IMG/VR virus record: IMGVR_UViG_3300006790_000003
Coordinates: 1-53,449 of that record
DNA length: 53,449 bases
Source: a virus
Lineage: Duplodnaviria; Caudoviricetes
Direction: 5' to 3' (one strand)
The notes beneath the pieces are model-generated. The model saw only the letters and a program-made list of their open reading frames with translations. It searched no databases and had not been told where the DNA came from. Both the position numbers and the translations under genes were made by a program. Every line of letters starts with the position of its first letter. The stretch's first letter is position 1. Shown here in pieces: positions 39,428-52,505 of the stretch.

Positions 39428-41001
39428 TATGCTGTTACCCAACTTTTCGCTTTTCTTTTTGGTTTATACCATTTAGGCTTACCACTTGCACCATCTTGTT
39501 TATAATTAGGCGGAAAAGCGTGTAAATTCGCATAATATAAACTCTCAATAGTGTCATCGTGCGCCATTCTTGGTCCAAATGTAATGATTTCGTTAATTAA
39601 ATCAAACATATTTTCTCTTAAATATAAGGAACCTGTACTAAAAATGCCAGATAAACCTGAATAAATTCTATTTCTTTTCTGTTGACCCCCTGGTTTTTCA
39701 GGAATTACGCTAATATCATAACGATTAATTCTCCTCCTTTCGTCATTTAGCGCTTGAAAAATACTTCTATTCATAGCAACATCTTCCACAGTAGCACTTA
39801 CACAATTGTATTTGTTATACAATTCAATGATATAATCTACTACTCCCATTTTATCCATAATACTTCCATCAGGATTTTTTGTACCAATAGTCGGAATACT
39901 GCGATGACGCTCGTATTCTAACACATAGCGATTGTTATTAGTATCTACCGCAATCACCATAATAGCACTAAAGTCTGATTCTTTTGTATTAATATCCGTA
40001 GCAGGGTCGCAGCCAATAAATACATTGACTGGTTTTCTATCTCCGTCCATTACTAGATAACTTTGTTTTTCTTCGGTATTATATTCGTAATACCCTTCCC
40101 AATACTTTAAATGTTTTTGTGTCCAAACAGAATCTTCTTCTGATTGTACTTCCATCATATATTCCTGATAGAATTTTGAAGGTGTACCTGAATCGTGATA
40201 GAATTTTTTCTTTTCTTCTAACTTTGATAAAGGAAACCAACTATCCCACAAGGACGTACCATCGGGTTGAATTGCCTTATACGTAATTACTCTCCACGCA
40301 AAATCTTCTTGCTTTTTCTGACTACGTTCGTAATTAATGATGAGGTTATTGATAAAGCTATCAAAGTGCACAGGAGTACCATTGACCCTAAGACGACCAG
40401 TATGAGGCTCAATAGCAGGATAAACAACAGCAGTAACGAGGTTGCTGTTTTTAGCCCTTGCTTCAGCCGTGATAGTATTTGCTTCGTGTTCAAAGTCGTC
40501 CAAAATGATGAGGTCGTATCTTTTATGTAGTTTACTACCTCCTCTAATACCCGCAACATTCGATTTACTAATAAGTTTACATCCATTTGTTAACTCCACA
40601 TCTTCTTCTGTCCATTTCTTTCCTTTAAGATTCCCAAAATAATATTTGATAGAATCGTTGTACTCAAAATGGTATTTAATATAATCCATATTACCCGTAC
40701 TTAGTTTTTGCGTCGCAGACACCCACGCATAAAATAGCATATCGTCTTTCGGACAAAAACAAAAGTCTTTGATAATAGAGCATTTCGTAAGAACTGTCTT
40801 CCCGTGTCCTCTAGGTAGAATAACCGCTAATTGTTTGACACTACTATCATCAATTGCATCCGCCATTTCATAATGAAACGGAGGAGTTTCACTACGCATA
40901 AAGTCATCGGGAAGAAACAGTTTCCCAAACGCTATTAAGTCTTTACTCGCTAGGAGTAGAGCTTTTTCCGCTTTGCTTACGTTTTTCTTGTTTATGTTCA
41001 T
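39427..41001 (-). CDS. terL: Terminase large subunit
   Basis: PRGHGKT, IRG, IILDD.E, NGTP, FYQEYM, GCDPA, DFSA, HDD..ESL. Confidence 0.95.
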   Translation of the reverse strand: MNINKKNVSKAEKALLLASKDLIAFGKLFLPDDFMRSETPPFHYEMADAIDDSSVKQLAVILPRGHGKTVLTKCSIIKDFCFCPKDDMLFYAWVSATQKLSTGNMDYIKYHFEYNDSIKYYFGNLKGKKWTEEDVELTNGCKLISKSNVAGIRGGSKLHKRYDLIILDDFEHEANTITAEARAKNSNLVTAVVYPAIEPHTGRLRVNGTPVHFDSFINNLIINYERSQKKQEDFAWRVITYKAIQPDGTSLWDSWFPLSKLEEKKKFYHDSGTPSKFYQEYMMEVQSEEDSVWTQKHLKYWEGYYEYNTEEKQSYLVMDGDRKPVNVFIGCDPATDINTKESDFSAIMVIAVDTNNNRYVLEYERHRSIPTIGTKNPDGSIMDKMGVVDYIIELYNKYNCVSATVEDVAMNRSIFQALNDERRRINRYDISVIPEKPGGQQKRNRIYSGLSGIFSTGSLYLRENMFDLINEIITFGPRMAHDDTIESLYYANLHAFPPNYKQDGASGKPKWYKPKRKAKSWVTA

Positions 41002-41188
41002 TTGCTTTTACTTCTTTTTCGATAAATTTGGTTAATTTATCTTGGTCTTTATTCATTCGTATATACTTATCTAACACATCATCTAGCATACGCATATGAT
41101 TTGCAACAAAGTTAATACGATTTTCCAACTCCTTGATAGAACGAACAATATCGTGCTTTGTAAGAGTCGGTTTATTACGTTTTCCCAT
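40943..41188 (-). CDS. Hypothetical basic protein
   Basis: GGAGG SD, operon packing. Confidence 0.7.
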   Translation of the reverse strand: MGKRNKPTLTKHDIVRSIKELENRINFVANHMRMLDDVLDKYIRMNKDQDKLTKFIEKEVKANEHKQEKRKQSGKSSTPSE

Positions 41189-41335
41189 TTATCCTCCTTG
41201 ACCTACATAACGTTTCTTATAATATTTCTTAGACAATTTGTTTCCAAATTTGGTGTTCTTTGATTGTCCTTGTCGTGTTTTTTTCTTTTGCACTTTTCGG
41301 ACTTTCTGAATACCAAATACTTGTCTACGAGCCAT
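41189..41335 (-). CDS. Small basic protein ending KKRYVGQGG (48 aa; not in ORF track)
   Basis: Fills the gap exactly and is coupled at both ends. Confidence 0.7.
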   Translation of the reverse strand: MARRQVFGIQKVRKVQKKKTRQGQSKNTKFGNKLSKKYYKKRYVGQGG

Positions 41336-41487
41336 TATTTTTTAACCTTTTTCTTTGTAGTTCTTTTTTTGGTTGTTTTCTTTTTCTTCGTAGCATACTT
41401 TCTTCTGCTATGACCTGTTTTTAAGTCGTTTCCGTTCATAGTAAACATCTCCACAATTGCTTTTTTTATTTTATTGAAATTAAACAT
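41335..41487 (-). CDS. Small Lys-rich protein (50 aa)
   Basis: Start moved to 41487 (GGGAG SD, TAATG overlap); KKKKTTKKRTTKKKVKK tail. Confidence 0.65.
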   Translation of the reverse strand: MFNFNKIKKAIVEMFTMNGNDLKTGHSRRKYATKKKKTTKKRTTKKKVKK

Positions 41488-42374
41488 TAGTTCTCCCAAC
41501 AGTTTATTTGTTCTTTTGTAAATTCCATTGTAATCCAACCCGTACGCTGAATGCCATAAAATGAGTATCGTGCATAATCTGCATAACGCATAAACGACCC
41601 TCCTCTTACATACCATTTACGTTTAAGTGTTTCTTCTCCGTTATTGTCAATTGTTAACGAATCCATTGGTTTACAATATAGTTGGTGATTATGTCCTAAG
41701 AAAAAGACATCTCCGTCACTATAGACAGATGCCATTTGATTTAATTCATTATCACCATTCTTTGCGCCGCTTTTTCCGTGTCCACTTACTAAAAACCAGT
41801 CTTTACCTTGAATACTAATCTTTGCATACCCTGGTAATCTAAAGTAAGGTACATCCATTTCAGCCGCTAAAGTCTTACAGACATCAAAGTCTAAAATATT
41901 AAAACTACGTAAGTAGTCGTGGTTCCCGCCACGAATAAATAGGCATTTATCCGCAATTGGTTGCACCAATTTTAGAAAGGCGGTGTATTGGTCCTCAGGA
42001 GCCATAGATTGTCCACGCTGATTAATGTTATAATTCGGTGGAATTAGTTCAATCAAATCACCATTACCAAACCATCGTGCATTCGGGTCTTCGTAAATAG
42101 CTTTAATTGCTTGTTGAAACTTCTTTAAATCAAATTCGTTCGCTCCAACGTGTACATCCGTCAACCCGTGAATACGCAACCTCTCATCACTTGACACCTG
42201 AAAGATTTTTCCAGGTTCAATATGTTTAGAGTCATATTCTTTTATATCAGAAGGAATAGGTATTGAAAACCATTTTCCACAAGACTTACAGCTAAATTGT
42301 TGTTTTACTGTTTCTTTGTTTCGTTTTTTCCCTTCTTTTTTGGTGAGCATACTACTACAATGTGGACATATCAT
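41487..42374 (-). CDS. Calcineurin-like metallophosphoesterase with N-terminal Zn ribbon
   Basis: CPHC...CKSC; DVH, GD, GNHD, HG and GHNH motifs; start at MICPHC behind GGAGG. Confidence 0.88.
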   Translation of the reverse strand: MICPHCSSMLTKKEGKKRNKETVKQQFSCKSCGKWFSIPIPSDIKEYDSKHIEPGKIFQVSSDERLRIHGLTDVHVGANEFDLKKFQQAIKAIYEDPNARWFGNGDLIELIPPNYNINQRGQSMAPEDQYTAFLKLVQPIADKCLFIRGGNHDYLRSFNILDFDVCKTLAAEMDVPYFRLPGYAKISIQGKDWFLVSGHGKSGAKNGDNELNQMASVYSDGDVFFLGHNHQLYCKPMDSLTIDNNGEETLKRKWYVRGGSFMRYADYARYSFYGIQRTGWITMEFTKEQINCWEN

Positions 42375-43173
42375 CAGTTTCCTCCTGTGGTTCCACTTCA
42401 TCTTCAAAGGCATCAGGTAATGCTTTACGCTGTGCACTTTCTATTTGGTCTGGTGAAAATCCTTGGAATAATCCTACGACACCTGTATCAATTTTCTTGA
42501 CTTGGTTTCCTAGAGTACCAATAGCTTTTCCCAATTCTTTTAATGATTGTAGTGCAATATTCTGGTCTTCACTAGTATCTGCTAGTTGTTTCAGCGACCC
42601 TAAGATATATGCGTGGTCAATTCCTAATTGCTTTGCTATATCCTTTGCACTTTTTTCTACTTCACTCATAACTCTCTCCTGTTTAAGTAATATTACTGCT
42701 TTTTTTCGTGCTTTTTGTGCATTGTCTTCTTTAAACGTTTGCATATACGCACTTACAGCATCCGTTCCTACCGCAACTTGTGTTGCAAATAATTTTTCTT
42801 TCTGAGTACACTTGGTTCGTTTCTTCATTCGTTGCGCACCCGTTAATAATTCTGGATTGGTAGAAAACGTATATCTATTTGGGTGTTTATCAAAATCCGT
42901 ATCCATAAAAGTTTTAGGTTTATTTAGGAATGTACCTACAATTGTTCGGACATATCCGTTTGTGAGCTTATAATTTTTTGTATCTCCAGGGTGGGACATT
43001 GATTTTGCTTTTAAAATTTGAACAATATTTCCATCATCACTATATACCCAATCACCTTCTTTGGCTGTTCTCCAATCTTTCACAATAGGAGTATCTTTAT
43101 CGTGGTGGTCATAAAATTCTTCCAAGGTTTCATAGACATAATGGCGTTTATATTTAATCGTATTCGATTTCAT
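42355..43173 (-). CDS. Putative terminase small subunit with extra N-terminal domain
   Basis: C-terminal KLFA...AY...KA..LL HTH and ALQSLKELGK pattern; upstream of terL. Confidence 0.55.
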   Translation of the reverse strand: MKSNTIKYKRHYVYETLEEFYDHHDKDTPIVKDWRTAKEGDWVYSDDGNIVQILKAKSMSHPGDTKNYKLTNGYVRTIVGTFLNKPKTFMDTDFDKHPNRYTFSTNPELLTGAQRMKKRTKCTQKEKLFATQVAVGTDAVSAYMQTFKEDNAQKARKKAVILLKQERVMSEVEKSAKDIAKQLGIDHAYILGSLKQLADTSEDQNIALQSLKELGKAIGTLGNQVKKIDTGVVGLFQGFSPDQIESAQRKALPDAFEDEVEPQEETDDMSTL

Positions 43174-43433
43174 TTTTTTTTACTTAATTGCTTATGTAAG
43201 GACTCAATTAAATACATTACTTCCTTATCTACCCAATATTTATTTCCATTAATCTCTAAAGGTACTTTTTTTATTTCATCTTCCATATCAATTGTAGACA
43301 ATACCATATCTTCGTCTTCTATGTTATCGTTATTTAACCATTTATGGATTTTCCCCAACTTTTCCAACTCCTCTAATATGTTGAGTTGGTCTTCTAAAGG
43401 AAGTCTTGATAACCATAATATTCCGTGTGCCAT
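43170..43433 (-). CDS. Hypothetical protein
   Basis: Start moved to MAHG behind AAGGA; ATGA coupling. Confidence 0.7.
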   Translation of the reverse strand: MAHGILWLSRLPLEDQLNILEELEKLGKIHKWLNNDNIEDEDMVLSTIDMEDEIKKVPLEINGNKYWVDKEVMYLIESLHKQLSKKK

Positions 43434-43443
43434 ATTTTTTTCC

Positions 43444-43472
43444 TTGACAACCCACTCCAAACACCTTAACTT
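43444..43472 (+). promoter_or_regulatory. Sigma70-type promoter antisense to the late arm
   Basis: TTGACA-N17-TAACTT. Confidence 0.5.
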
Positions 43473-43478
43473 TACAAG

Positions 43479-43530
43479 GTTATCTACCTGTTATCTACTA
43501 GTATATACTAGTAAATAATTAGTAAATAAT
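43479..43530. repeat. Iteron-like repeats and palindrome
   Basis: GTTATCTAC x2, perfect 18-bp palindrome TACTAGTATATACTAGTA (43496-43513), TAGTAAATAAT x2. Confidence 0.8.
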
Positions 43531-43532
43531 AT

Positions 43533-43673
43533 TTATTTCTTTTTCTTTGGTTCTTTCTTTTTCTTTAAAAGTTCGACCAACTGTTTATTCAGACGTTTCT
43601 CAGATTCTTCTCGTTGTCTACGAGCAACACCTGTGAGACCATCTCTACGAATATCTTTAGAAGTTATTGTCAT
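43533..43673 (-). CDS. Small basic protein (46 aa; not in ORF track)
   Basis: MTITSKDIRRDGLTG...LLKKKKEPKKKK; directly behind a promoter-like site. Confidence 0.55.
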   Translation of the reverse strand: MTITSKDIRRDGLTGVARRQREESEKRLNKQLVELLKKKKEPKKKK

Positions 43674-43681
43674 AATACCCT

Positions 43682-43711
43682 AATATAAGTAATAAAACCC
43701 ATGTGTTCCAA
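43682..43711 (-). promoter_or_regulatory. Possible promoter at the head of the late arm
   Basis: TTGGAA-N18-TATATT. Confidence 0.4.
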
Positions 43712-43812
43712 CATTTTTTTTCACCATTTTGAAATAGACCTACTCACACACACCCTACCCCCCTAACTGTGACTTTCAATATCAATTTTTTCATTATGAG
43801 GAGAAATCAATT

Positions 43813-44079
43813 ATGGCTAAAGCGAAAACAAACGCTACTCCCGCTATAGATGAGAAACAGCTAATGTTAAAGCTATTCAATGTTCAGGTACAACTGAAGA
43901 TGGCTAGTTTGACTAAGCGTCTCAACTCTAGAGCTGGATTACCAGGTTGGTTAGTAGACAAAGAGATTAACTCTTTAATTGACTCAGCGAAGACTATGGG
44001 ACTTACGGGCGAAGGCTCAGATGTTAAAGCTTCACTAGAGGAATTTAAAGCGGTAGCTTCGTCTATCCAATCTAGTTAA
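43813..44079 (+). CDS. First gene of the early arm, hypothetical helical protein
   Basis: GAGGAG SD; followed by a hairpin and T-run. Confidence 0.8.
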   Translation: MAKAKTNATPAIDEKQLMLKLFNVQVQLKMASLTKRLNSRAGLPGWLVDKEINSLIDSAKTMGLTGEGSDVKASLEEFKAVASSIQSS

Positions 44080-44112
44080 CAGTAGCTAGTGTCTGAATAA
44101 GATTCGGGGTTT

Positions 44113-44160
44113 AGTGCACCTGGCAACGGAACGCACTTATTTACTTTATTTTATTTATTA
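44113..44160 (+). terminator. GNRA-capped hairpin with T-rich tail
   Basis: AGTGC-AC-CTG-GCAA-CGG-AAC-GCACT, then TATTTACTTTATTTT. Confidence 0.5.
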
Positions 44161-44426
44161 TTATTATCATTCTATTACAGATACAGTACTATTTTAAGTG
44201 ATATGGCATATATACCTTAATATTTTAATCATATGTGATAGATATAGTTTAATATGTAAAGAGAAACACCCTATATACTATAAACTTTTAAGTAAACATG
44301 GGTAAACAACAATAGATTTACACAAATCGCTGAAATACAGCGTTATTATCTCTAAGTGATATGTCGTATTCACATTGATAATATAATGCAACCTATGCAC
44401 ATTCTCGTGCGTAAAAAGGACGAAAA

Positions 44427-44606
44427 ATGAGAATAAATCAAGTTCTTATGATACATAAAATCAATGCAATACTATGTGGTGGTTATATGACACGTGGTAA
44501 AGTAGAGATTATATGTGAACTAATACGAAAACAGAACATTGACGCTTCTAATGAAGACATTGATGTATTGTTACGTACCATAAGTGTTGTAGAAGACTAC
44601 AACTAA
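44427..44606 (+). CDS. Small hypothetical protein (59 aa; not in ORF track)
   Basis: AAGGA SD; MRINQVLMIHKINAILCGG... Confidence 0.6.
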   Translation: MRINQVLMIHKINAILCGGYMTRGKVEIICELIRKQNIDASNEDIDVLLRTISVVEDYN

Positions 44607-44609
44607 AAT

Positions 44610-45200
44610 TACCATTATAGTATGGCAACGATGTAGAGATGAGGATTAGTCCCCTTGTCTCTATATCATATAATTTGGTGGAATTATGCCTCTTGTGGGC
44701 GACCGTAAACTACGTGGTTAATCCAGGAAAGTAGTTGAAACGTGACCAGTCTTATATAGTATTATCTATTTCGATATGCATAGTAGATAGTCATTTACAA
44801 TCACGGTATGTATAAGATGAATGAAATATTTGCACAAATCGGTTATATAAATCCAGGCATCAATGCATAATGAAACCAATAAGTTTTTTTTCTCGTAGTA
44901 AGGACCTTTATCGTTCATTACCTCGTTCCTTTGGTTATGTTGTTTATCAATTAGGTTGGTAGAGGTCCAAAAATTATTAAAATACGGCTATATAAGTGGA
45001 TAATAATGTAACACCGCACATAATCCACCTTGAGGCAATTGGATATCAAAAGTATATCTGAGTAGTTAGGCAATGGTTAAATGACTGAGCAAACCTATGC
45101 TAATCAAGATACCGAACAAAGATAAGCGCAGGTGTATCTTAAGTGGTATTGTAGGGGGATAGCTTCCCAATGCGTAATCCTACTATAGACGTATTTTAAT
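44610..45200 (+). ncRNA. Candidate structured ncRNA cluster I
   Basis: No ORF of 60 aa or more; nested stems 44630-44667, 44675-44879, 44902-44968 and 44976-45200, with G-U pairs favouring the + strand. Confidence 0.6.
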
Positions 45201-45233
45201 ATCTTTAATCAAGTAAACAGAAAGTAGGTAGTT

Positions 45234-45857
45234 ATGAATATTAAAAAATGGGAGTACAAGCAACGTCAAGCTCCAAATAAACAATCGTTGCATTATAGGA
45301 ACTTTATGAAACAATATAGAGCTTATAATAAATTTATTGCTAAATGGGGTAGATTACCAATGCAAAGTAATAGTTGTAATCGTAGACCTATTGCAGAGCG
45401 TAGATTATATCAATGGGCATCACAGATAAAACATAGAATGCAACAACGTAAACTTCCGCAATGGAAATATAATTTATGTACAAATATTGCTGGTTGGGAA
45501 TGGAATAGACAAAGTAATGTATGGACACAACGTTATTTAGAATGTAAAGCATACATAGAACAATATGGTCATACTCCAACACAAATACGACCAGAACGCT
45601 TTCCAAAAAGAATACATAAAGGAAAGTGGATTTCACCAGTTGATGCACAATTACACACCTTATCTATATGGGTAATGTGTCAACGCAAGAAGTTTAATAA
45701 AGGTGAATTATTACCACAACGATTAAACGCATTAATAGATATTGATTTTGAATTTGAACCACCTATGGGTCGTTCCGTTAGAACTAATGGTATGATAGAT
45801 GGTATGGATACGATGGAAAATATCAATAGAATAGTAGAGGAGAATGATTATGTCTAA
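45234..45857 (+). CDS. Stand-alone tandem helicase-associated (HA) domain protein
   Basis: Two W...Y...YG..P...L..W...Q......L.....L..I.[WF].[WF] units. Confidence 0.8.
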   Translation: MNIKKWEYKQRQAPNKQSLHYRNFMKQYRAYNKFIAKWGRLPMQSNSCNRRPIAERRLYQWASQIKHRMQQRKLPQWKYNLCTNIAGWEWNRQSNVWTQRYLECKAYIEQYGHTPTQIRPERFPKRIHKGKWISPVDAQLHTLSIWVMCQRKKFNKGELLPQRLNALIDIDFEFEPPMGRSVRTNGMIDGMDTMENINRIVEENDYV

Positions 45858-46014
45858 ACCTTATCATCAGTATTATAATGAAATACAACATACTGATAAA
45901 CGTAAAAGTATTGCTGTTCTAAAAGCATATAGAAAATACAGACAAGAAACATTGTTAGGACGTATTGCAATTAGAATGGATAGTTTAATTGATTTGCTAA
46001 GAAGGAGGTCTTAG
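45850..46014 (+). CDS. Small basic hypothetical protein (54 aa; not in ORF track)
   Basis: GAGGAG SD; bridges the flanking genes. Confidence 0.65.
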   Translation: MSKPYHQYYNEIQHTDKRKSIAVLKAYRKYRQETLLGRIAIRMDSLIDLLRRRS

Positions 46015-46015
46015 T

Positions 46016-46546
46016 ATGGGAATGGATTTAGTAGCAAAAAAACCTAAAAATGAGAACTACACGGATTATAGATTTAATGTCTGGGGTTGGAGACCAGTAT
46101 GGGACTATTGTATACAATATGGATGTGAAAAATATATTAAAGATAGAAAGACACCACTTATATCAATAGAAACAGCTCAGAATGGACATTATAATAGTGG
46201 TCATTTAGTCTCAGAAGAAGAAGCAAAGAAATTAGCTGAAATGATTAAAGAACATCATTTAAATGGCACATTAGATAAACATCACGCTGGTATACAAGCT
46301 GGGATAGAAGAAGCAAAATTATTTAATGCTGAGTTAGAAAAGAGATTAGCATCTTTAAAGAAACAAGCAGAGAAAGAAGCTGGTAAATCTGATTTAGCAC
46401 CAATCAATTATCCTGAAACATATAAAAAGAGATATGATGAGCTTGTTGAAACTCGTGATTGGCGTAGTTATTATCCTTTTCATAGAGAAAAAATGTTAGA
46501 CTTTGCAATATTTATGGAACAATCTGGAGGGTTCGAAATATGGTAA
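46016..46546 (+). CDS. Hypothetical phage protein
   Basis: AAGGAGG SD; MGMDL...NVWGWRP...SGGFEIW. Confidence 0.8.
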   Translation: MGMDLVAKKPKNENYTDYRFNVWGWRPVWDYCIQYGCEKYIKDRKTPLISIETAQNGHYNSGHLVSEEEAKKLAEMIKEHHLNGTLDKHHAGIQAGIEEAKLFNAELEKRLASLKKQAEKEAGKSDLAPINYPETYKKRYDELVETRDWRSYYPFHREKMLDFAIFMEQSGGFEIW

Positions 46547-46809
46547 ATAAAAACAGCCAAAAATACCGCATCTTAAAGCACTTAAAAAGACATAGACGCA
46601 TCACATCAATGGAAGCGTTTACAAAATTTAATGCTACAAGACTTAGCGGTATTATATACAATCTTAGAGATGATGGGTTTATCATTAATACAGAACGTAT
46701 TGTAAAAAATGGAAAATCATTTGGACGATATTATCTGATTGAAAATGATACAAACGAATCGTTGTTAACTCAATATTTCTTACAAGATTGGGCAGTAATT
46801 AATGGTTAG
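46540..46809 (+). CDS. Winged helix-turn-helix protein
   Basis: SQ..RIL.HL...ITS.EA....RL...I..LR..G..I.T pattern. Confidence 0.8.
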   Translation: MVNKNSQKYRILKHLKRHRRITSMEAFTKFNATRLSGIIYNLRDDGFIINTERIVKNGKSFGRYYLIENDTNESLLTQYFLQDWAVING

Positions 46810-46821
46810 CACTCTACTTGT

Positions 46822-46839
46822 TTTACTTGGTGCGTAAAC
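46822..46839. repeat. Inverted copy of the 3721 dyad element
   Basis: TTTACTTGGTGCGTAAAC. Confidence 0.85.
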
Positions 46840-46840
46840 A

Positions 46841-46882
46841 AAAGGTTGAGGTGTATTCCTTGTGGATATGCCTTGACTTTTT
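46841..46882 (+). terminator. Intrinsic terminator overlapping the next promoter
   Basis: AAAGGTTGAGGTGTATTC/GGATATGCCTTGACTTTT stem followed by a T-run. Confidence 0.65.
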
Positions 46883-46901
46883 CTATTGATATTACTATAT
46901 T
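46873..46901 (+). promoter_or_regulatory. Sigma70-type promoter of the recombination/replication operon
   Basis: TTGACT-N17-TATATT, then GGGAGG and ATG 46925. Confidence 0.75.
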
Positions 46902-46924
46902 TAGAGACATTTCAGGGAGGAAAT

Positions 46925-47674
46925 ATGATAGATATTCCAAAGATATATAACGATTATCTACAACAAAAAAACAAAGAAAATCGTAAAAAGTACAAAGATT
47001 ACCAAGAGTGGTTTAGTGCTAGTAGCGCAGGTAGTTGTTATAGAAAGCAGTTGCATAGGCAACAAGATTTAACGCTAGAACCTTTAGAAGAAAAGAGTGC
47101 AAGACTTTTAAGATTAGGAACTTTAGTACACGCAGACTTTGAACAAGCATTAAAAGATTGGGACATACAAGAACACGTAGATAAACCTGATGAGATACAA
47201 GTATTTACAGAACATAGAATAGAAATACCTGAACTCAATGTAATGGGTCATTTAGATATTGGTGTTGTCAATCGTGAAGGTGAAATGATACACGTATATG
47301 ATATTAAAACCGCAGGTGCTTGGAAATGGCGTATGAAGTTTGGTAGAAATCCAGACAAAAGTCCTAGTACAAATTATGAGTTACAGTTAGCTACATATGC
47401 TATAGGACTAGGAAACCAAGAAGATATAACTGATGTGAGATTATCAATTATGTGGTATAACAAAGATAATTCACAAATGAAAGAAGAGCCAATTTCTAAT
47501 ATGTATATGGAAGCGGCGTTTGATTATTGGACAGATTTGAATGAAACAAGCGATAATGTGAAAGGTGAAGCAGAAATGTTAAACCCTGGAAGTGAAAATG
47601 TTCCTGTATATAAGTGGGAATGTAAGTATTGTGAATTTCAAGGTAAATATTGTCCTGGATTATATAACATTTAA
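46925..47674 (+). CDS. Cas4-like PD-(D/E)xK exonuclease
   Basis: S...C.R, G...H, E, GHLD, DIKT, QL..Y, C..C.F...C (Fe-S cysteines). Confidence 0.88.
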   Translation: MIDIPKIYNDYLQQKNKENRKKYKDYQEWFSASSAGSCYRKQLHRQQDLTLEPLEEKSARLLRLGTLVHADFEQALKDWDIQEHVDKPDEIQVFTEHRIEIPELNVMGHLDIGVVNREGEMIHVYDIKTAGAWKWRMKFGRNPDKSPSTNYELQLATYAIGLGNQEDITDVRLSIMWYNKDNSQMKEEPISNMYMEAAFDYWTDLNETSDNVKGEAEMLNPGSENVPVYKWECKYCEFQGKYCPGLYNI

Positions 47675-47696
47675 ACACTAGAAAGGAGGAAATCTA

Positions 47697-47945
47697 GTGA
47701 TAGAAGGTGAAACACAAGAATGTGTTATTTGTAATCAAGACATAGATAAGCAAATCTTAACAAGATATAACCCAATTACAGATACTGAAGTAAGAGATGT
47801 ATATTGGACGGAGGGACATAACGCTGAACCAGTTAAAAAAGGTAGATGTTGCACACATTGTAATAATACAGTAGTAATACCTACACGACTGGCACAGTTA
47901 CTTCCTGAGAATGCTTTAGATGCGGAGATTAGAAATGACGCTTGA
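47697..47945 (+). CDS. Zn-binding small protein, paralog 1
   Basis: CVIC...GHNAEPVKKGRCCTHCN..V.PTRL; GTG start with AAGGAGG. Confidence 0.75.
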   Translation: MIEGETQECVICNQDIDKQILTRYNPITDTEVRDVYWTEGHNAEPVKKGRCCTHCNNTVVIPTRLAQLLPENALDAEIRNDA

Positions 47946-48138
47946 TACATATAAAAACCCTAAGAATTGTTGTCTTTGTGGAGAGAAATTAGGAAACCCT
48001 TATGGATTCAATGCAGAGCCAATAAAAAATGGAAGATGCTGTGCAGTATGTAATTACCAAGCAGTATTACCAACACGATTAAAACTATTTGTAAACGAAA
48101 TAAAGAAAGAAGGTAAACACGATGGCGAACGTAAATAG
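47935..48138 (+). CDS. Zn-binding small protein, paralog 2
   Basis: CCLC...GFNAEPIKNGRCCAVCN..V.PTRL. Confidence 0.75.
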   Translation: MTLDTYKNPKNCCLCGEKLGNPYGFNAEPIKNGRCCAVCNYQAVLPTRLKLFVNEIKKEGKHDGERK

Positions 48139-48331
48139 TAAAACTTTTGGAGATGTAGTTGTTTATGAAAGTGAATGGCGTTCATTTCTAGAAGTGCAGA
48201 AGTCTGGAAATCATAATATGATGAGTCCAGCAGCTAGAGTAGAGGGAGGTTGCGACAAAGAAACTTGGTTTGCAATGCTATCTAATTATGAAACACTTGA
48301 AAAAGAATGGGGTAACGATGAAACAGAATAA
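48122..48331 (+). CDS. Hypothetical phage protein
   Basis: VQKSG.HNM...NY..L motif, operon packing. Confidence 0.7.
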   Translation: MANVNSKTFGDVVVYESEWRSFLEVQKSGNHNMMSPAARVEGGCDKETWFAMLSNYETLEKEWGNDETE

Positions 48332-48893
48332 CGTATTTGAAGTACTAAGTAAAATAGACGTCAAAGAACACATTGAGAAGAAAGGTAATTTTAGCTATCT
48401 TTCTTGGGCTTGGGCTGTGAGAGTATTATTAGAAAACTTTCCTCAAGCTACTTGGGAAGTACATACTTATTTTGATAATGGTGTAGAAACACCTTATATG
48501 CGTACTGAAGCTGGTGCATTTGTACAAGTAACAGTAAGTATAGAAGAAGTACGAAGAACTCAAGTACACCCAGTATTAGACCATACAAACAAAACTGTAT
48601 TAGAACCTAATGCTTTTCAAATAAACACAGCAATACAACGTTGTTTAGCAAAAGCAATAGCACTACACGGATTAGGATTGTATATCTATGCTGGTGAAGA
48701 TTTGCCAACAGCTCCTGATAAATTAAATAAAGAGCAATATGAATCTATCTTTGGATTGTTAAAAGTAATTGACGATAAAGAGTTAGAGGCAAAAGTAATC
48801 GAACAAATTGGTGATGAAACTATCAATGATGCTAACTTTAAAGCGGCGTATGCAAAACTAAAACGCAAAGCTGATAAGGTAGGTGCAAAATGA
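48318..48893 (+). CDS. sak: Sak (Rad52-like) single-strand annealing protein
   Basis: EKKGNFSYLSWAWA...PVLD...INTAIQRCLAKAIALHGLGLYIYAGEDLP. Confidence 0.92.
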   Translation: MKQNNVFEVLSKIDVKEHIEKKGNFSYLSWAWAVRVLLENFPQATWEVHTYFDNGVETPYMRTEAGAFVQVTVSIEEVRRTQVHPVLDHTNKTVLEPNAFQINTAIQRCLAKAIALHGLGLYIYAGEDLPTAPDKLNKEQYESIFGLLKVIDDKELEAKVIEQIGDETINDANFKAAYAKLKRKADKVGAK

Positions 48894-49150
48894 AGTTAGA
48901 AGAAATCAACAATACAGACGATTATAGAGATGATGTATATAAAGTAAACGCTAAATACACAATAGGTGTGAATGATGGTAAAGAATTTCGTGAAGCTACC
49001 TTTACTGGTACAAAGCTATATCACGGAAAACCAATAATGACATTTGTAATGTGGGGTGGTACACGTAATGGTCATCTAAACTTGAATATTAACCAAAGCT
49101 ATCTATCTTATGCGATAGAAGAGCCAATGGAGGTAGAACAAGATGGGTAA
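48890..49150 (+). CDS. Hypothetical protein
   Basis: ATGA coupling. Confidence 0.7.
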   Translation: MKLEEINNTDDYRDDVYKVNAKYTIGVNDGKEFREATFTGTKLYHGKPIMTFVMWGGTRNGHLNLNINQSYLSYAIEEPMEVEQDG

Positions 49151-49984: not shown

Positions 49985-49997
49985 ATCACCAGACAGC

Positions 49998-50045
49998 GGG
50001 GTAGATGAATTAAACCTAACCAGGTTATCTTCATATTTCTACCCC
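49998..50045 (+). terminator. Stem-loop after the SSB gene
   Basis: GGGGTAGA/TCTACCCC closing stem; weak U-tail. Confidence 0.45.
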
Positions 50046-50062
50046 AAGTCTAATTTAGGACT

Positions 50063-50090
50063 TTGTTTCCTGAAAATTATTTTGTATATT
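50063..50090 (+). promoter_or_regulatory. Possible sigma70-type promoter
   Basis: TTGTTT-N16-TATATT. Confidence 0.4.
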
Positions 50091-50092
50091 AT

Positions 50093-50169
50093 ATGAGGGC
50101 TCACGTATTGAGATTAACCAGGATATTCCTGGTCATGTGAATACAGGTATGGCTACTTAGAGCTCTCGT
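50093..50169 (+). ncRNA. Candidate three-way-junction leader RNA
   Basis: ATGAGGGCTC/GAGCTCTCGT closing stem; ACCAGG/CCTGGT inner stem. Confidence 0.45.
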
Positions 50170-50185
50170 ATAATAAGGAGGAATC

Positions 50186-50365
50186 ATGGATAAACTTAAA
50201 CAAGCACAAGAATTGTTGCGTCTTGGTACTGTTTGGAATAAAATTATTGAAGAAATAAAAAACACTTTAGAAATTGGTTCCAGCGAAAAAGACATTATAG
50301 ATGATATTGTGCAAAGAACTTGGGCTGAGGAAAAAGAAAATGAACGAAGCAGTAATAACAATTAA
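50186..50365 (+). CDS. Small hypothetical protein (59 aa; not in ORF track)
   Basis: AAGGAGG SD; MDKLKQAQELLRLGTVW... Confidence 0.75.
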   Translation: MDKLKQAQELLRLGTVWNKIIEEIKNTLEIGSSEKDIIDDIVQRTWAEEKENERSSNNN

Positions 50366-51975: not shown

Positions 51976-52488
51976 GTTCCTAAAATGCATAAGGTCCCTG
52001 AGATTAGACCACTTGATAGAGACTGGCTACTGTACAGAAGTCATATAGAGAACGTAGCGTGACCCTCTCTACAAAGTCTATTCTCTTGCTAGTAAAACTA
52101 CAGAAGACGCACATGTAATCATTCCTTGTGATAGTTGAAGCCGATAACTATTTAATACCAGGTACACAAGGTTTTGCCTTATTCTGTAGTAAATTTAGTC
52201 TCACGGGAAGCATAGCAGACCACGTGGACGAAATTAATAAATATATAGTTAAGTCATTGGTAGCCTGAAGCCTAGGCAAATGTATACAGTAAAAAGCTGG
52301 TTGGCGTATACACTTAACTATATAATTGGGCGGTGATGGATTAGCCAGTAGACTCTAGAGTTTATAAGCCGCCTAAAAAATTAAGAATAGCAACAGATAG
52401 GTGAGTCTTACGTAAAGTCCATGGAAACCTATACTAGCTATATAACAGGGTAATATGTAAAGCCGTCACCGTGAGGTATTATTACCCT
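51962..52488 (+). ncRNA. Candidate structured ncRNA cluster II (seven tandem stem-closed modules)
   Basis: Consecutive closing stems up to 13 bp separated by A-rich linkers; no ORF of 60 aa or more. Confidence 0.65.
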
Positions 52489-52505
52489 AAACCTTTGGAG
52501 GAAAT

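What the first reader, a model, noticed from the sequence alone, without database searches (positions are those of the whole stretch)
44610..45233. Second large structured non-coding block in the early region
Seen: a 15-bp hairpin (44630-44667), a ~205-nt multibranch domain (44675-44879), a 12-bp-closed domain (44902-44968) and a 225-nt domain closed by ATTAAAATACG/CGTATTTTAAT. The last holds about six inner hairpins (GTGGAT/ATCCAC, GGATAT/ATATCT, AAGATAC/GTATCTT, GTAGG/CCTAC). G-U pairs favour a + strand RNA. Inference: early ncRNA(s), possibly products of the virion RNAP acting in host takeover or anti-defence. ssDNA hairpin promoters, as used by the N4 virion RNAP, are an alternative reading.
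Basis: partly seen in the sequence, partly recalled or inferred. Interest (0 to 1): 0.7.

Follow-up and report, generated by a model that had tools for sequence, protein, structure and literature searches.

The report
New structured RNAs in marine phage
The non-coding stretch holds two discrete, pseudoknotted RNA folds that are kept by compensatory mutations across related uncultured marine phages and match no known RNA family, so they look like new phage non-coding RNAs whose job is still unknown.

Summary
Window 44610-45233 (+ strand) is non-coding and contains four RNA modules.

- **D1 (44675-44879) and D3 (44976-45200):** these are discrete, independently inherited structured RNAs.
  - D3: 16 distinct full copies, 74 pairs, 98.1% of cells paired, 7 pairs with compensatory changes. 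Slid controls gave 33-41%.
  - D1: 13 copies, 49 pairs, 95.1% paired, 10 compensatory pairs.
  - Both contain a pseudoknot. Many G-U pairs fix the RNA on the + strand.
- **The 15-bp hairpin (H, 44630-44667):** real, but an indel that sits elsewhere in other relatives.
- **The 12-bp-closed domain (D2):** only weakly supported.

No Rfam family matches and no frame is open. D1 and D3 occur together or alone, beside changing small ORFs and different downstream genes. Only 3 of 22 suitably sampled TerL relatives have D3, so they are accessory modules.

Contigs from marine RNA libraries, identical to the window, bridge D1-D2-D3. Two of them stop at 45131, inside D3.

Best reading: new accessory non-coding RNAs carried on an early phage transcript.

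The parts
44427..44606 (+). Small conserved ORF (59 aa) just upstream of the block. It is part of the same RNA-library contig as the structured modules.
   Evidence: ORF list. 59-aa homologues are present in relatives L097 and L104. It diverges far more at the DNA level than the non-coding block that follows. The X3 contig 44180-45153 covers it.
44608..44667 (+). Module H: a small hairpin plus the 15-bp hairpin (44630-44667). It is an indel and a movable hairpin cassette, terminator-like in form.
   Evidence: Scan: 15 pairs. Absent from L002 and L003. Nearly identical copies sit at other places in L033 and in L105/L112, with G-U pairs that fit only the + strand. RNA-library contigs run through it.
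44675..44879 (+). Module D1: a structured RNA with a conserved core at about 44684-44870.

Helices:
- 44684-89 with 44865-70
- 44693-95 with 44861-63
- 44701-05 with 44840-44
- 44708-13 with 44731-36, capped here by an inserted hairpin 44715-17 with 44723-25
- Pseudoknot pair: 44741-45 with 44801-05, crossing 44749-57 with 44810-18
- Variable hairpin 44762-68 with 44784-90
- The outer helix 44675-79 with 44875-79 is lineage-specific.
   Evidence: 13 distinct copies. 95.1% of 553 cells are paired, 10 of 49 pairs changed on both sides, and slid controls gave 32-45%. The variable hairpin is absent or replaced by a different hairpin in other lineages. The outer helix is paired in only 72% of cells.
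44902..44968 (+). Module D2: a long hairpin closed by about 12 pairs with several G-U pairs. Found only in the window's own lineage.
   Evidence: Folds. 16 consensus pairs with 0 double changes and 2 wobble swaps in 5 sequences. Weak support.
44976..45200 (+). Module D3: a 225-nt structured RNA with sharp borders.

Helices:
- P1 44976-86 with 45190-45200
- P1a 44988-92 with 45184-88
- P2 44996-45001 with 45023-28
- P2a 45006-09 with 45018-21
- P3 45029-36 with 45099-45108
- P4 45039-46 with 45054-61
- P5 45062-65 with 45095-98
- P5a 45070-71 with 45089-90
- P5b 45075-78 with 45083-86
- P6 45109-13 with 45145-49
- P6a 45119-24 with 45135-40
- P7 45151-55 with 45179-83
- P8 45156-59 with 45165-68
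- Pseudoknot 45126-30 with 45171-75
   Evidence: 16 distinct full copies plus 1 cut copy. 74 pairs, 98.1% of 1183 cells paired, 7 pairs changed on both sides, slid controls 33-41%. Conservation starts and stops exactly at the P1 arms. It is single copy in the window.
45131..45131 (+). Reproducible end of RNA-library fragments inside D3, at position 156, just 3' of the pseudoknot strand in the P6a loop.
   Evidence: Contigs of runs X4 (44514-45131) and X8 (44690-45131) both stop here. Each runs on into letters that I recognise, from recall, as sequencing adapter. Contigs of X2 and X3 bridge the site. This is a weak hint only.
45234..45857 (+). First gene after D3 (207 aa, no family). It is not a constant partner of D3.
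   Evidence: No PHROG hit. In other lineages D3 is followed by unrelated genes of 172-186 aa, 173-175 aa or 56 aa, or by no ORF of 50 aa or more for about 240 nt.

Best explanation
Window 44669-45200 encodes autonomous structured RNA modules on the + strand. They lie inside the transcript that opens the phage's replication/recombination gene module, interleaved with tiny ORFs.

**What is shown.** D1 and D3 are separate RNA domains. Each closes on its own terminal helix, contains a pseudoknot, and keeps long invariant unpaired stretches. They are inherited and lost independently. Together with other unrelated modules in relatives, they form a mosaic 'RNA island' at one fixed genome position.

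**What is inferred.** The modules act as RNA, not as DNA or peptide. They are accessory rather than core functions. Most likely they are stable non-coding RNAs, carried on or cut out of an abundant early transcript with one RNA end inside D3 at 45131. They would then bind a host or phage factor early in infection, for takeover or counter-defence.

**Odds.** I put about 0.9 on 'functional structured + strand RNAs'. I put about 0.4 on the specific 'accessory, factor-binding stable ncRNA' mechanism. The figure below is for the whole statement.
For: **Structure.**
- D3: 98.1% of 1183 cells paired, 7 of 74 pairs with changes on both sides, against 33-41% paired when partners are slid.
- D1: 95.1% of 553 cells paired, 10 of 49 pairs with changes on both sides, against 32-45%.
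- One D1 helix shows three different pair combinations at two positions.

**Strand.** G-U pairs are frequent and in places invariant.

**RNA-level selection.** The block is about 97% identical to L002 and L003, while the adjacent 59-aa ORF has diverged far more.

**Not coding.**

**Discrete modules.**
- Conservation begins and ends at the D3 P1 arms while the flanks are unrelated between lineages.
- D1 occurs alone in L113-L115. D3 occurs alone in L005/L009 and L013. Both occur with spacers of 97 to about 955 nt.

**Accessory.** D3 is in 3 and D1 in 1 of 22 TerL-related loci that reach far enough. Relatives without them carry other conserved non-coding modules at the same place.

**Not tied to one gene.** The downstream gene differs between lineages.

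**Present in RNA libraries.**
- 9 runs labelled RNA hold 47-82% of the sampled words.
- In 4 of 4 runs laid, contigs with 0 differences cover the block. X2 (44705-45184) and X3 (44180-45153) bridge D1-D2-D3.

**New family.** 0 of 4227 Rfam families reach gathering score. The only hits are four chance-level ones at E 5-9.4.
Against: - No function was tested, and no partner protein, target or ligand is known.
- Contigs cannot show strand, ends or level, and DNA carried into RNA libraries is not excluded (tool note).
- The 45131 end comes from two runs of one library type, and two other runs bridge it.
- Diversity is modest. D3 has mean column identity 89%, and 4 of its 13 helices never vary, so those are neither supported nor refuted.
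- The shuffle control can be exceeded by related sequences without any structure (tool note).
- The D1 fold energy is no better than shuffles (z -0.15).
- D3 sits 33 nt before a start codon in the window, which also suits a cis-regulatory role.
- I found no complementarity to the phage's own genome that would suggest antisense targets: 29 11-mers against a mean of 37 in shuffles.
Confidence: 0.42

Rival explanations
1. Cis-acting regulatory leader. D3, and perhaps D1, would be a riboswitch-like sensor, attenuator or processive antiterminator that sets how much transcription or translation continues into the downstream early genes.
For: - D3 ends 33 nt before the start codon of the next gene in the window. 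In most lineages it also ends close to a ribosome-binding site.
- Long invariant junctions and a pseudoknot are typical of ligand- or protein-binding RNAs.
- In several lineages a local strand can pair with the same pseudoknot strand as the distant partner, which would allow two alternative folds.
- All four RNA-library contigs that cover the block end within the 3' half of D3.
Against: - The downstream gene is unrelated between lineages. In L097/L099 no ORF of 50 aa or more follows for about 240 nt.
- The modules are missing from most close relatives, which is odd for a control element of a core operon.
- No terminator-like stem with a U tract follows D3.
- Pairing between an upstream pyrimidine motif and the downstream ribosome-binding site is no better in cognate than in non-cognate combinations.
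- No known riboswitch family matches.
Confidence: 0.23
2. D3 is a self-cleaving or site-specifically processed RNA. It would cut between positions 156 and 157 (45131/45132) and separate a stable upstream RNA from the downstream message.
For: - Contigs of two RNA libraries (X4, X8) stop at exactly 45131 and continue into adapter-like letters. This implies many fragments ending there.
- The site lies in a hairpin loop next to the pseudoknot strand, within a highly conserved fold.
Against: - Contigs of X2 and X3 bridge the site.
- Contigs cannot prove RNA ends.
- The two runs may belong to one campaign with one protocol.
- No known ribozyme family matches.
- The variable region around the site would also make assemblies break there.
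Confidence: 0.1
3. The modules are message-protecting structures, 3'-UTR or intercistronic stabilisers that block host ribonucleases, with no further specific function.
For: - They sit after tiny ORFs on the same contig as those ORFs.
- H and D2 are plain long hairpins.
Against: - Simple stabilisers need neither pseudoknots, multi-helix junctions nor long invariant unpaired stretches.
- The modules are swapped for unrelated ones rather than degenerating.
Confidence: 0.12
4. DNA-level element: single-stranded hairpin promoters of the N4 type, or a replication origin at the strand-switch region.
For: - The cumulative GC skew turns near 44 kb.
- An A+T-rich stretch lies at 44130-44300.
- The block precedes the replication genes.
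Against: - Compensatory changes preserve long-range helices and pseudoknots. Many pairs are G-U, which would be A-C on the other strand.
- The modules are missing from most relatives, whereas an origin or early promoter should be universal.
- The skew turn coincides with the switch in gene direction.
- No virion RNAP was identified.
- From recall, N4 promoters are 5-7 bp stems with 3-nt loops, unlike anything here.
Confidence: 0.05
5. Chance folding or hidden coding, either short peptides or a recoded frame.
For: - Whole-region folding energy is not exceptional.
- One copy (L110) has an open stretch of 68 codons in D3.
Against: - There are 2-11 stops per frame in all six frames of all 16 D3 copies and 2-9 in D1. 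Variable columns by codon phase are 20/23/20 and 25/19/22.
- DNA conservation exceeds that of the neighbouring genes.
- Covariation is seen in both modules.
Confidence: 0.03

Closest known systems
GOLLD and ROOL large ornate RNAs of phages and prophages
   Same: Large, intricately folded, pseudoknotted non-coding RNAs carried by phages, with unknown function and strong sequence conservation. I saw the search listing and the start of the abstract of 10.1101/2024.12.08.627333 and of PMC5737381.
   Different: Neither Rfam model matches even at E 10. D1 (about 190-205 nt) and D3 (225 nt) are smaller and independent modules. No tRNA genes are nearby. Multimer formation is untested.
Small stable RNAs of phage T4 (species 1 and 2) (recalled, no call)
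   Same: Phage-encoded stable structured RNAs processed from a longer early transcript, with function still unknown.
   Different: The T4 RNAs lie in a tRNA cluster and are processed with tRNAs. Here there are no tRNAs and no sequence relation was tested.
put RNAs of phage HK022 and other processive antitermination leaders (recalled)
   Same: Structured RNA just downstream of an early promoter that acts on the transcribing polymerase.
   Different: put is about 70 nt, consists of two simple stem-loops, and is a fixed part of the early operons. D1 and D3 are larger, pseudoknotted, and absent from most relatives.
Riboswitches and small self-cleaving ribozymes with pseudoknots, such as glmS and pistol (recalled features)
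   Same: A discrete domain closed by a terminal helix, a pseudoknot, invariant junction nucleotides, and a position ahead of a gene. D3 also has a possible cleavage-like end inside it.
   Different: No family matches. There is no constant gene association. Neither ligand nor cleavage was tested.
N4 virion-RNAP hairpin promoters
   Same: Hairpin-forming sequences in an early region.
   Different: Those are short DNA hairpins. Here the helices are long-range, pseudoknotted and rich in G-U, and no virion RNAP was identified.

Membership tests
Any Rfam 15 family (4227 models, including GOLLD, ROOL, IMES, riboswitches, ribozymes, RNase P, 6S, tmRNA) | Score at or above the family's gathering threshold | tested here: not met
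   0 matches in the whole window. With permissive filters on 43900-45400 there were only 4 hits, at E 5-9.4 and 12-19 bits against thresholds of 70-100.
tRNA / tmRNA | ARAGORN detection | tested here: not met
   0 genes in the window.
Riboswitch (generic) | Constant association with genes of one function or pathway | tested here: not met
   Downstream genes differ between lineages, or no ORF of 50 aa or more follows for about 240 nt.
Riboswitch (generic) | Ligand-dependent change of fold, and an expression platform | not testable with these tools
   No terminator-like site follows D3. The anti-RBS pairing test was negative. Alternative local pairing to the pseudoknot strand is seen in some lineages.
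Self-cleaving ribozyme (generic) | Site-specific self-scission | not testable with these tools
   The only hint is two RNA-library contigs that end at 45131, while two others bridge it.
N4-type ssDNA hairpin promoter | Short hairpin (5-7 bp stem, 3-nt loop; recalled) used by a virion RNAP encoded in the genome | tested here: inconclusive
   The helices here are long-range or 12-15 bp. The 2929-aa ORF has no Pfam or PHROG hit, so a virion RNAP is neither shown nor excluded.
Intrinsic terminator (for hairpin H) | G+C-rich stem followed directly by a U tract, and transcripts ending there | tested here: inconclusive
   The consensus scan lists it, with 15 pairs of which 5 are G-C and a tail of mixed A/T. 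RNA-library contigs of X4 and X8 run through it.
Protein-coding small ORF | An open frame kept across relatives, with third-position variation | tested here: not met
   Stops in all six frames of all copies, and no periodicity.
Miniature inverted-repeat mobile element (considered because D3 has an 11-bp terminal inverted repeat and sharp borders) | Multiple copies per genome, and no selection on internal pairing | tested here: not met
   Single copy in the window and per locus. Internal helices show compensatory changes.

The most novel reading that the evidence does not exclude
The early region of this abundant, uncultured marine podophage lineage is a shuffling island of RNA 'genes'. At least five unrelated, self-contained structured RNA modules (H, D1, D2, D3, the 'ncB' module and others) are exchanged like protein accessory genes. 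D3 would be a new class of catalytic or ligand-responsive RNA that cuts or ends itself at position 156. The released RNAs would act as decoys or inhibitors of host defence or host RNA machinery.
Probability: 0.15. Interest if true: 0.9.

Novelty: categorically new. Interest (0 to 1): 0.68.

Why it matters
D1 and D3 match none of the 4227 curated RNA families. Yet they have the marks of RNAs that do sophisticated work: multi-helix junctions, pseudoknots, invariant unpaired stretches, and DNA conservation above that of the neighbouring proteins. They come from a phage lineage that is common in marine viral data (at least 600 terminase relatives), and they are present in marine RNA libraries.

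If they are stable early RNAs, they add RNA to the accessory tool kit by which marine phages take over their hosts. They would also show that RNA modules can be shuffled like protein genes. If D3 is a ribozyme or sensor, it would be a new class.

I mean 'categorically new' at the level of RNA family and fold. Orphan structured phage RNAs as a general kind do have precedents, such as GOLLD and ROOL.

Tried and rejected
**Searches that found nothing**
- blastn of 44080-45240 against 50,697 phage records: no match.
- TerL by tblastn: the best cultured relatives are only about 25% identical, so no model phage is available.
- The covariance model of D3 over 76 sources, and that of D1 over 83 sources, found no remote or second copies. 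Only chance-level D3 hits appeared, at E 0.79 and above.
- A third D3 anchor pattern returned 9 new loci, all chance matches inside coding DNA.
- Exact-pattern scans of 185,579 prokaryote genomes found 0 for a D3 pattern and 0 for a D1 23-mer. These were exact matches only, so this is weak evidence of absence.

**Ideas tested and dropped**
- Anti-RBS pairing. A pyrimidine motif upstream of D3 looked complementary to the downstream ribosome-binding site. Cognate duplex energies were no better than non-cognate ones in a 13 x 13 table, so I dropped it.
- Antisense targets in the phage genome. 29 complementary or identical 11-mers against a mean of 37 in shuffles. Dropped.

**RNA-library cover**
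- The late-gene stretch 41000-43400 has almost no contigs in the four runs.
- The contig over the block has a higher depth figure than those over downstream genes: 39.4 against 4-7 in X3, about 14.5 against 3-8 in X4 and X8.
- The tool states that holes prove nothing and that contig depth cannot rank genes. The runs were also chosen for holding this stretch. I therefore do not use either point as evidence.

**Other**
- Three literature searches listed nothing that describes these RNAs. I saw only listings and starts of abstracts. Text search cannot find a sequence motif, and supplements are closed. 'Not in print' is therefore only as strong as those three searches plus the Rfam result.

Full report
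**Setting.** The window is a complete 53,449-bp virus record with direct terminal repeats.
- It encodes a P22-type portal, an SU10-type capsid protein and a large terminase on the minus strand.
- From about 43.8 kb onward it carries a + strand module: a Cas4-like exonuclease, a Sak-type annealing protein, SSB, a methyltransferase and a DnaB-type helicase.
- The nearest cultured phages share only about 25% terminase identity.
- IMG/VR holds at least 600 terminase relatives.
- The finding lies between a conserved 59-aa ORF (44427-44606) and a 207-aa ORF (45234-45857).

- The 15-bp hairpin (44630-44667) is found by the scan.
- Folding energy alone is not persuasive:

| Stretch | Strand | z-score | Shuffles folding as well |
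|---|---|---|---|
| Whole region | + | -1.49 | 1 of 20 |
| Whole region | - | -0.47 | 7 of 20 |
| D3 | + | -2.77 | 4 of 200 |
| D3 | - | -2.07 | 7 of 200 |
| D1 | + | -0.15 | 82 of 200 |

The evidence that this is more than chance is comparative.

**Relatives.**
- The 207-aa ORF led to two relatives at 89% protein identity.
- In the three-way alignment, DNA from 44668 to 45233 is nearly invariant, while the 59-aa ORF next to it has diverged strongly.
- A 56-nt block holding the 15-bp hairpin is simply absent from both relatives.
- Pattern scans of viral and metagenome contigs and a terminase-based fetch then showed that the block is not one unit.
- nhmmer with separate pieces found two parts conserved independently of each other: 44669-44878 (D1) and 44976-45200 (D3).

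**D3.**
- There are 16 distinct full copies and one cut by a contig end.
- Conservation begins exactly at the 5' arm of the closing helix and stops exactly at its 3' arm. The flanks are unrelated between lineages.
- I tested a curated model of 13 helices, including a pseudoknot between the P6a loop (45126-30) and the internal loop of P7 (45171-75).
  - It pairs 98.1% of 1183 cells.
  - 7 of 74 pairs changed on both sides.
  - Sliding the 3' partners by 1-3 columns gives 33-41% paired and 0-2 such pairs.
  - An earlier version of the model gave 99.1%.
- Compensatory changes support P4 (three pairs), P5, P6, P7 and the pseudoknot.
- P2, P2a's inner pairs, P5a and P8 never vary, so they are untested.
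- P6a is seen in each sequence folded alone, but in shifted registers. It aligns badly, with 66% paired.
- G-U pairs are common: one is G-U in 16 of 16 copies, others in 14, 11 and 9 of 16. They would be A-C on the other strand.
- In some lineages an inserted local strand can pair with the same pseudoknot strand. That leaves room for alternative folds.

**D1.**
- There are 13 distinct copies.
- The model has 9 helices. These include an H-type pseudoknot (44741-45 with 44801-05 crossing 44749-57 with 44810-18) and a hairpin of variable length. That hairpin is absent in some lineages and replaced by an unrelated hairpin in others.
  - It pairs 95.1% of 553 cells.
  - 10 of 49 pairs changed on both sides, in 34 cells.
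  - Slid controls gave 32-45% paired (10-sequence version).
- One helix (44701-05 with 44840-44) shows three pair types at one position and two at the next.

**D2 and H.**
- D2 (44902-44968) folds as a long hairpin. In 5 close relatives it shows no double change, only two wobble swaps. It may be real, but it is weakly supported.
- H occurs nearly unchanged at other positions in L033 and in L105/L112. Its one difference turns a G-U into A-U. It behaves as a small movable hairpin cassette.

**Not protein, not DNA.**
- Every one of the six frames has 2-11 stops in every D3 copy and 2-9 in every D1 copy.
- Variable columns fall 20/23/20 and 25/19/22 over the three phases.
- Long-range compensatory pairs, pseudoknots and G-U pairs argue against a DNA hairpin or an origin.
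- So does the absence of the modules from most relatives. Of 22 terminase-related loci that extend at least 6 kb to the relevant side, 3 have D3 and 1 has D1.

**Genomic behaviour.**
- D1 occurs without D3 (L113, L114, L115).
- D3 occurs without D1 (L005/L009, L013).
- Where both are present, the distance between them ranges from 97 nt (window) to about 325 nt with a 63-aa ORF in between, and to about 955 nt.
- The gene after D3 is the 207-aa ORF, or unrelated ORFs of 172-186 aa, 173-175 aa or 56 aa. In one lineage no ORF of 50 aa or more follows for about 240 nt.
- One relative keeps only the first dozen bases of D3 before a deletion.
- Relatives that lack both modules still have 0.4-1.2 kb without ORFs at the same place, and that space holds other conserved blocks. 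One of these ('ncB') is again closed by a terminal helix and has a variable-length hairpin insert.
- The locus is therefore a mosaic of RNA-like modules and tiny ORFs.

**Expression.**
- Nine runs labelled as RNA hold 47-82% of the sampled words of 44669-45233.
- I laid four of them on 41000-49000. All four gave contigs without a single difference over the block.
- X2 (44705-45184) and X3 (44180-45153) bridge D1, D2 and most of D3. X3 also includes the 59-aa ORF.
- X4 and X8 contigs both stop at 45131 and continue into letters that I recognise, from recall, as adapter. This implies many fragments ending at D3 position 156.
- Contigs cannot show strand, ends or abundance, and DNA in RNA libraries is not excluded. 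I take this as consistent with transcription and as a weak hint of a processing or termination site.

**What it is.**
- No Rfam family matches and there are no tRNAs.
- The modules are self-contained, highly conserved in unpaired regions, accessory, and not tied to a particular neighbour.
- I therefore favour stable accessory non-coding RNAs carried on an early transcript, acting by binding some host or phage factor.
- A cis-regulatory role for D3 is the main rival. A self-cleaving D3, plain message stabilisers and DNA-level elements follow.
The 2929-aa ORF hits nothing in Pfam or PHROGs.

**Limits.**
- Diversity is modest, and many sequences come from one phage lineage.
- The shuffle control can be beaten by relatedness alone.
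- I could scan the large collections only with exact patterns.
- Supplements of papers were closed, and text search cannot find motifs.
- No experiment on function exists.

Noticed in passing
window 44080-44426: The non-coding stretch between the 88-aa ORF and the 59-aa ORF is also conserved in the window's lineage and has two hairpins with compensatory changes. One is a terminator-like hairpin just after the 88-aa ORF (about 44113-44137), followed by a T-rich run. The other lies just before the 59-aa ORF's start (about 44394-44413).
   Followed up: partly
L022:4746-5904 (-), L033:5122-6311 (-), L025:4875-5228 (-), L014:6620-6941: Relatives without D1 and D3 carry other conserved non-coding blocks at the same locus, in gaps of 0.4-1.2 kb. 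The 'ncB' block (L025, L014, L113, L114) is closed by an 8-bp terminal helix and has a variable-length insert, like a further structured RNA.
   Followed up: partly
window 44427-44606; L010, L009, L098 and others: Tiny conserved ORFs are interleaved with the RNA modules: one of 57-59 aa upstream of D1 and one of 63 aa between D1 and D3 in other lineages. None has a PHROG hit.
   Followed up: no
window 6489-15278 (-): A 2929-aa ORF in the structural module has no Pfam or PHROG match at all.
   Followed up: partly
L114, about 5130-5170 (-): This relative keeps the first dozen or so bases of D3's 5' arm and then jumps to the sequence that follows D3 in other lineages. This looks like a clean deletion of the module.
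   Followed up: no
window 51976-52505 and 49985-50300: A crude ORF map shows two further stretches without long ORFs on the + strand.
   Followed up: no
window 44882-44890: A run of eight T directly after D1 is present only in the window's lineage. RNA-library contigs run through it.
   Followed up: no
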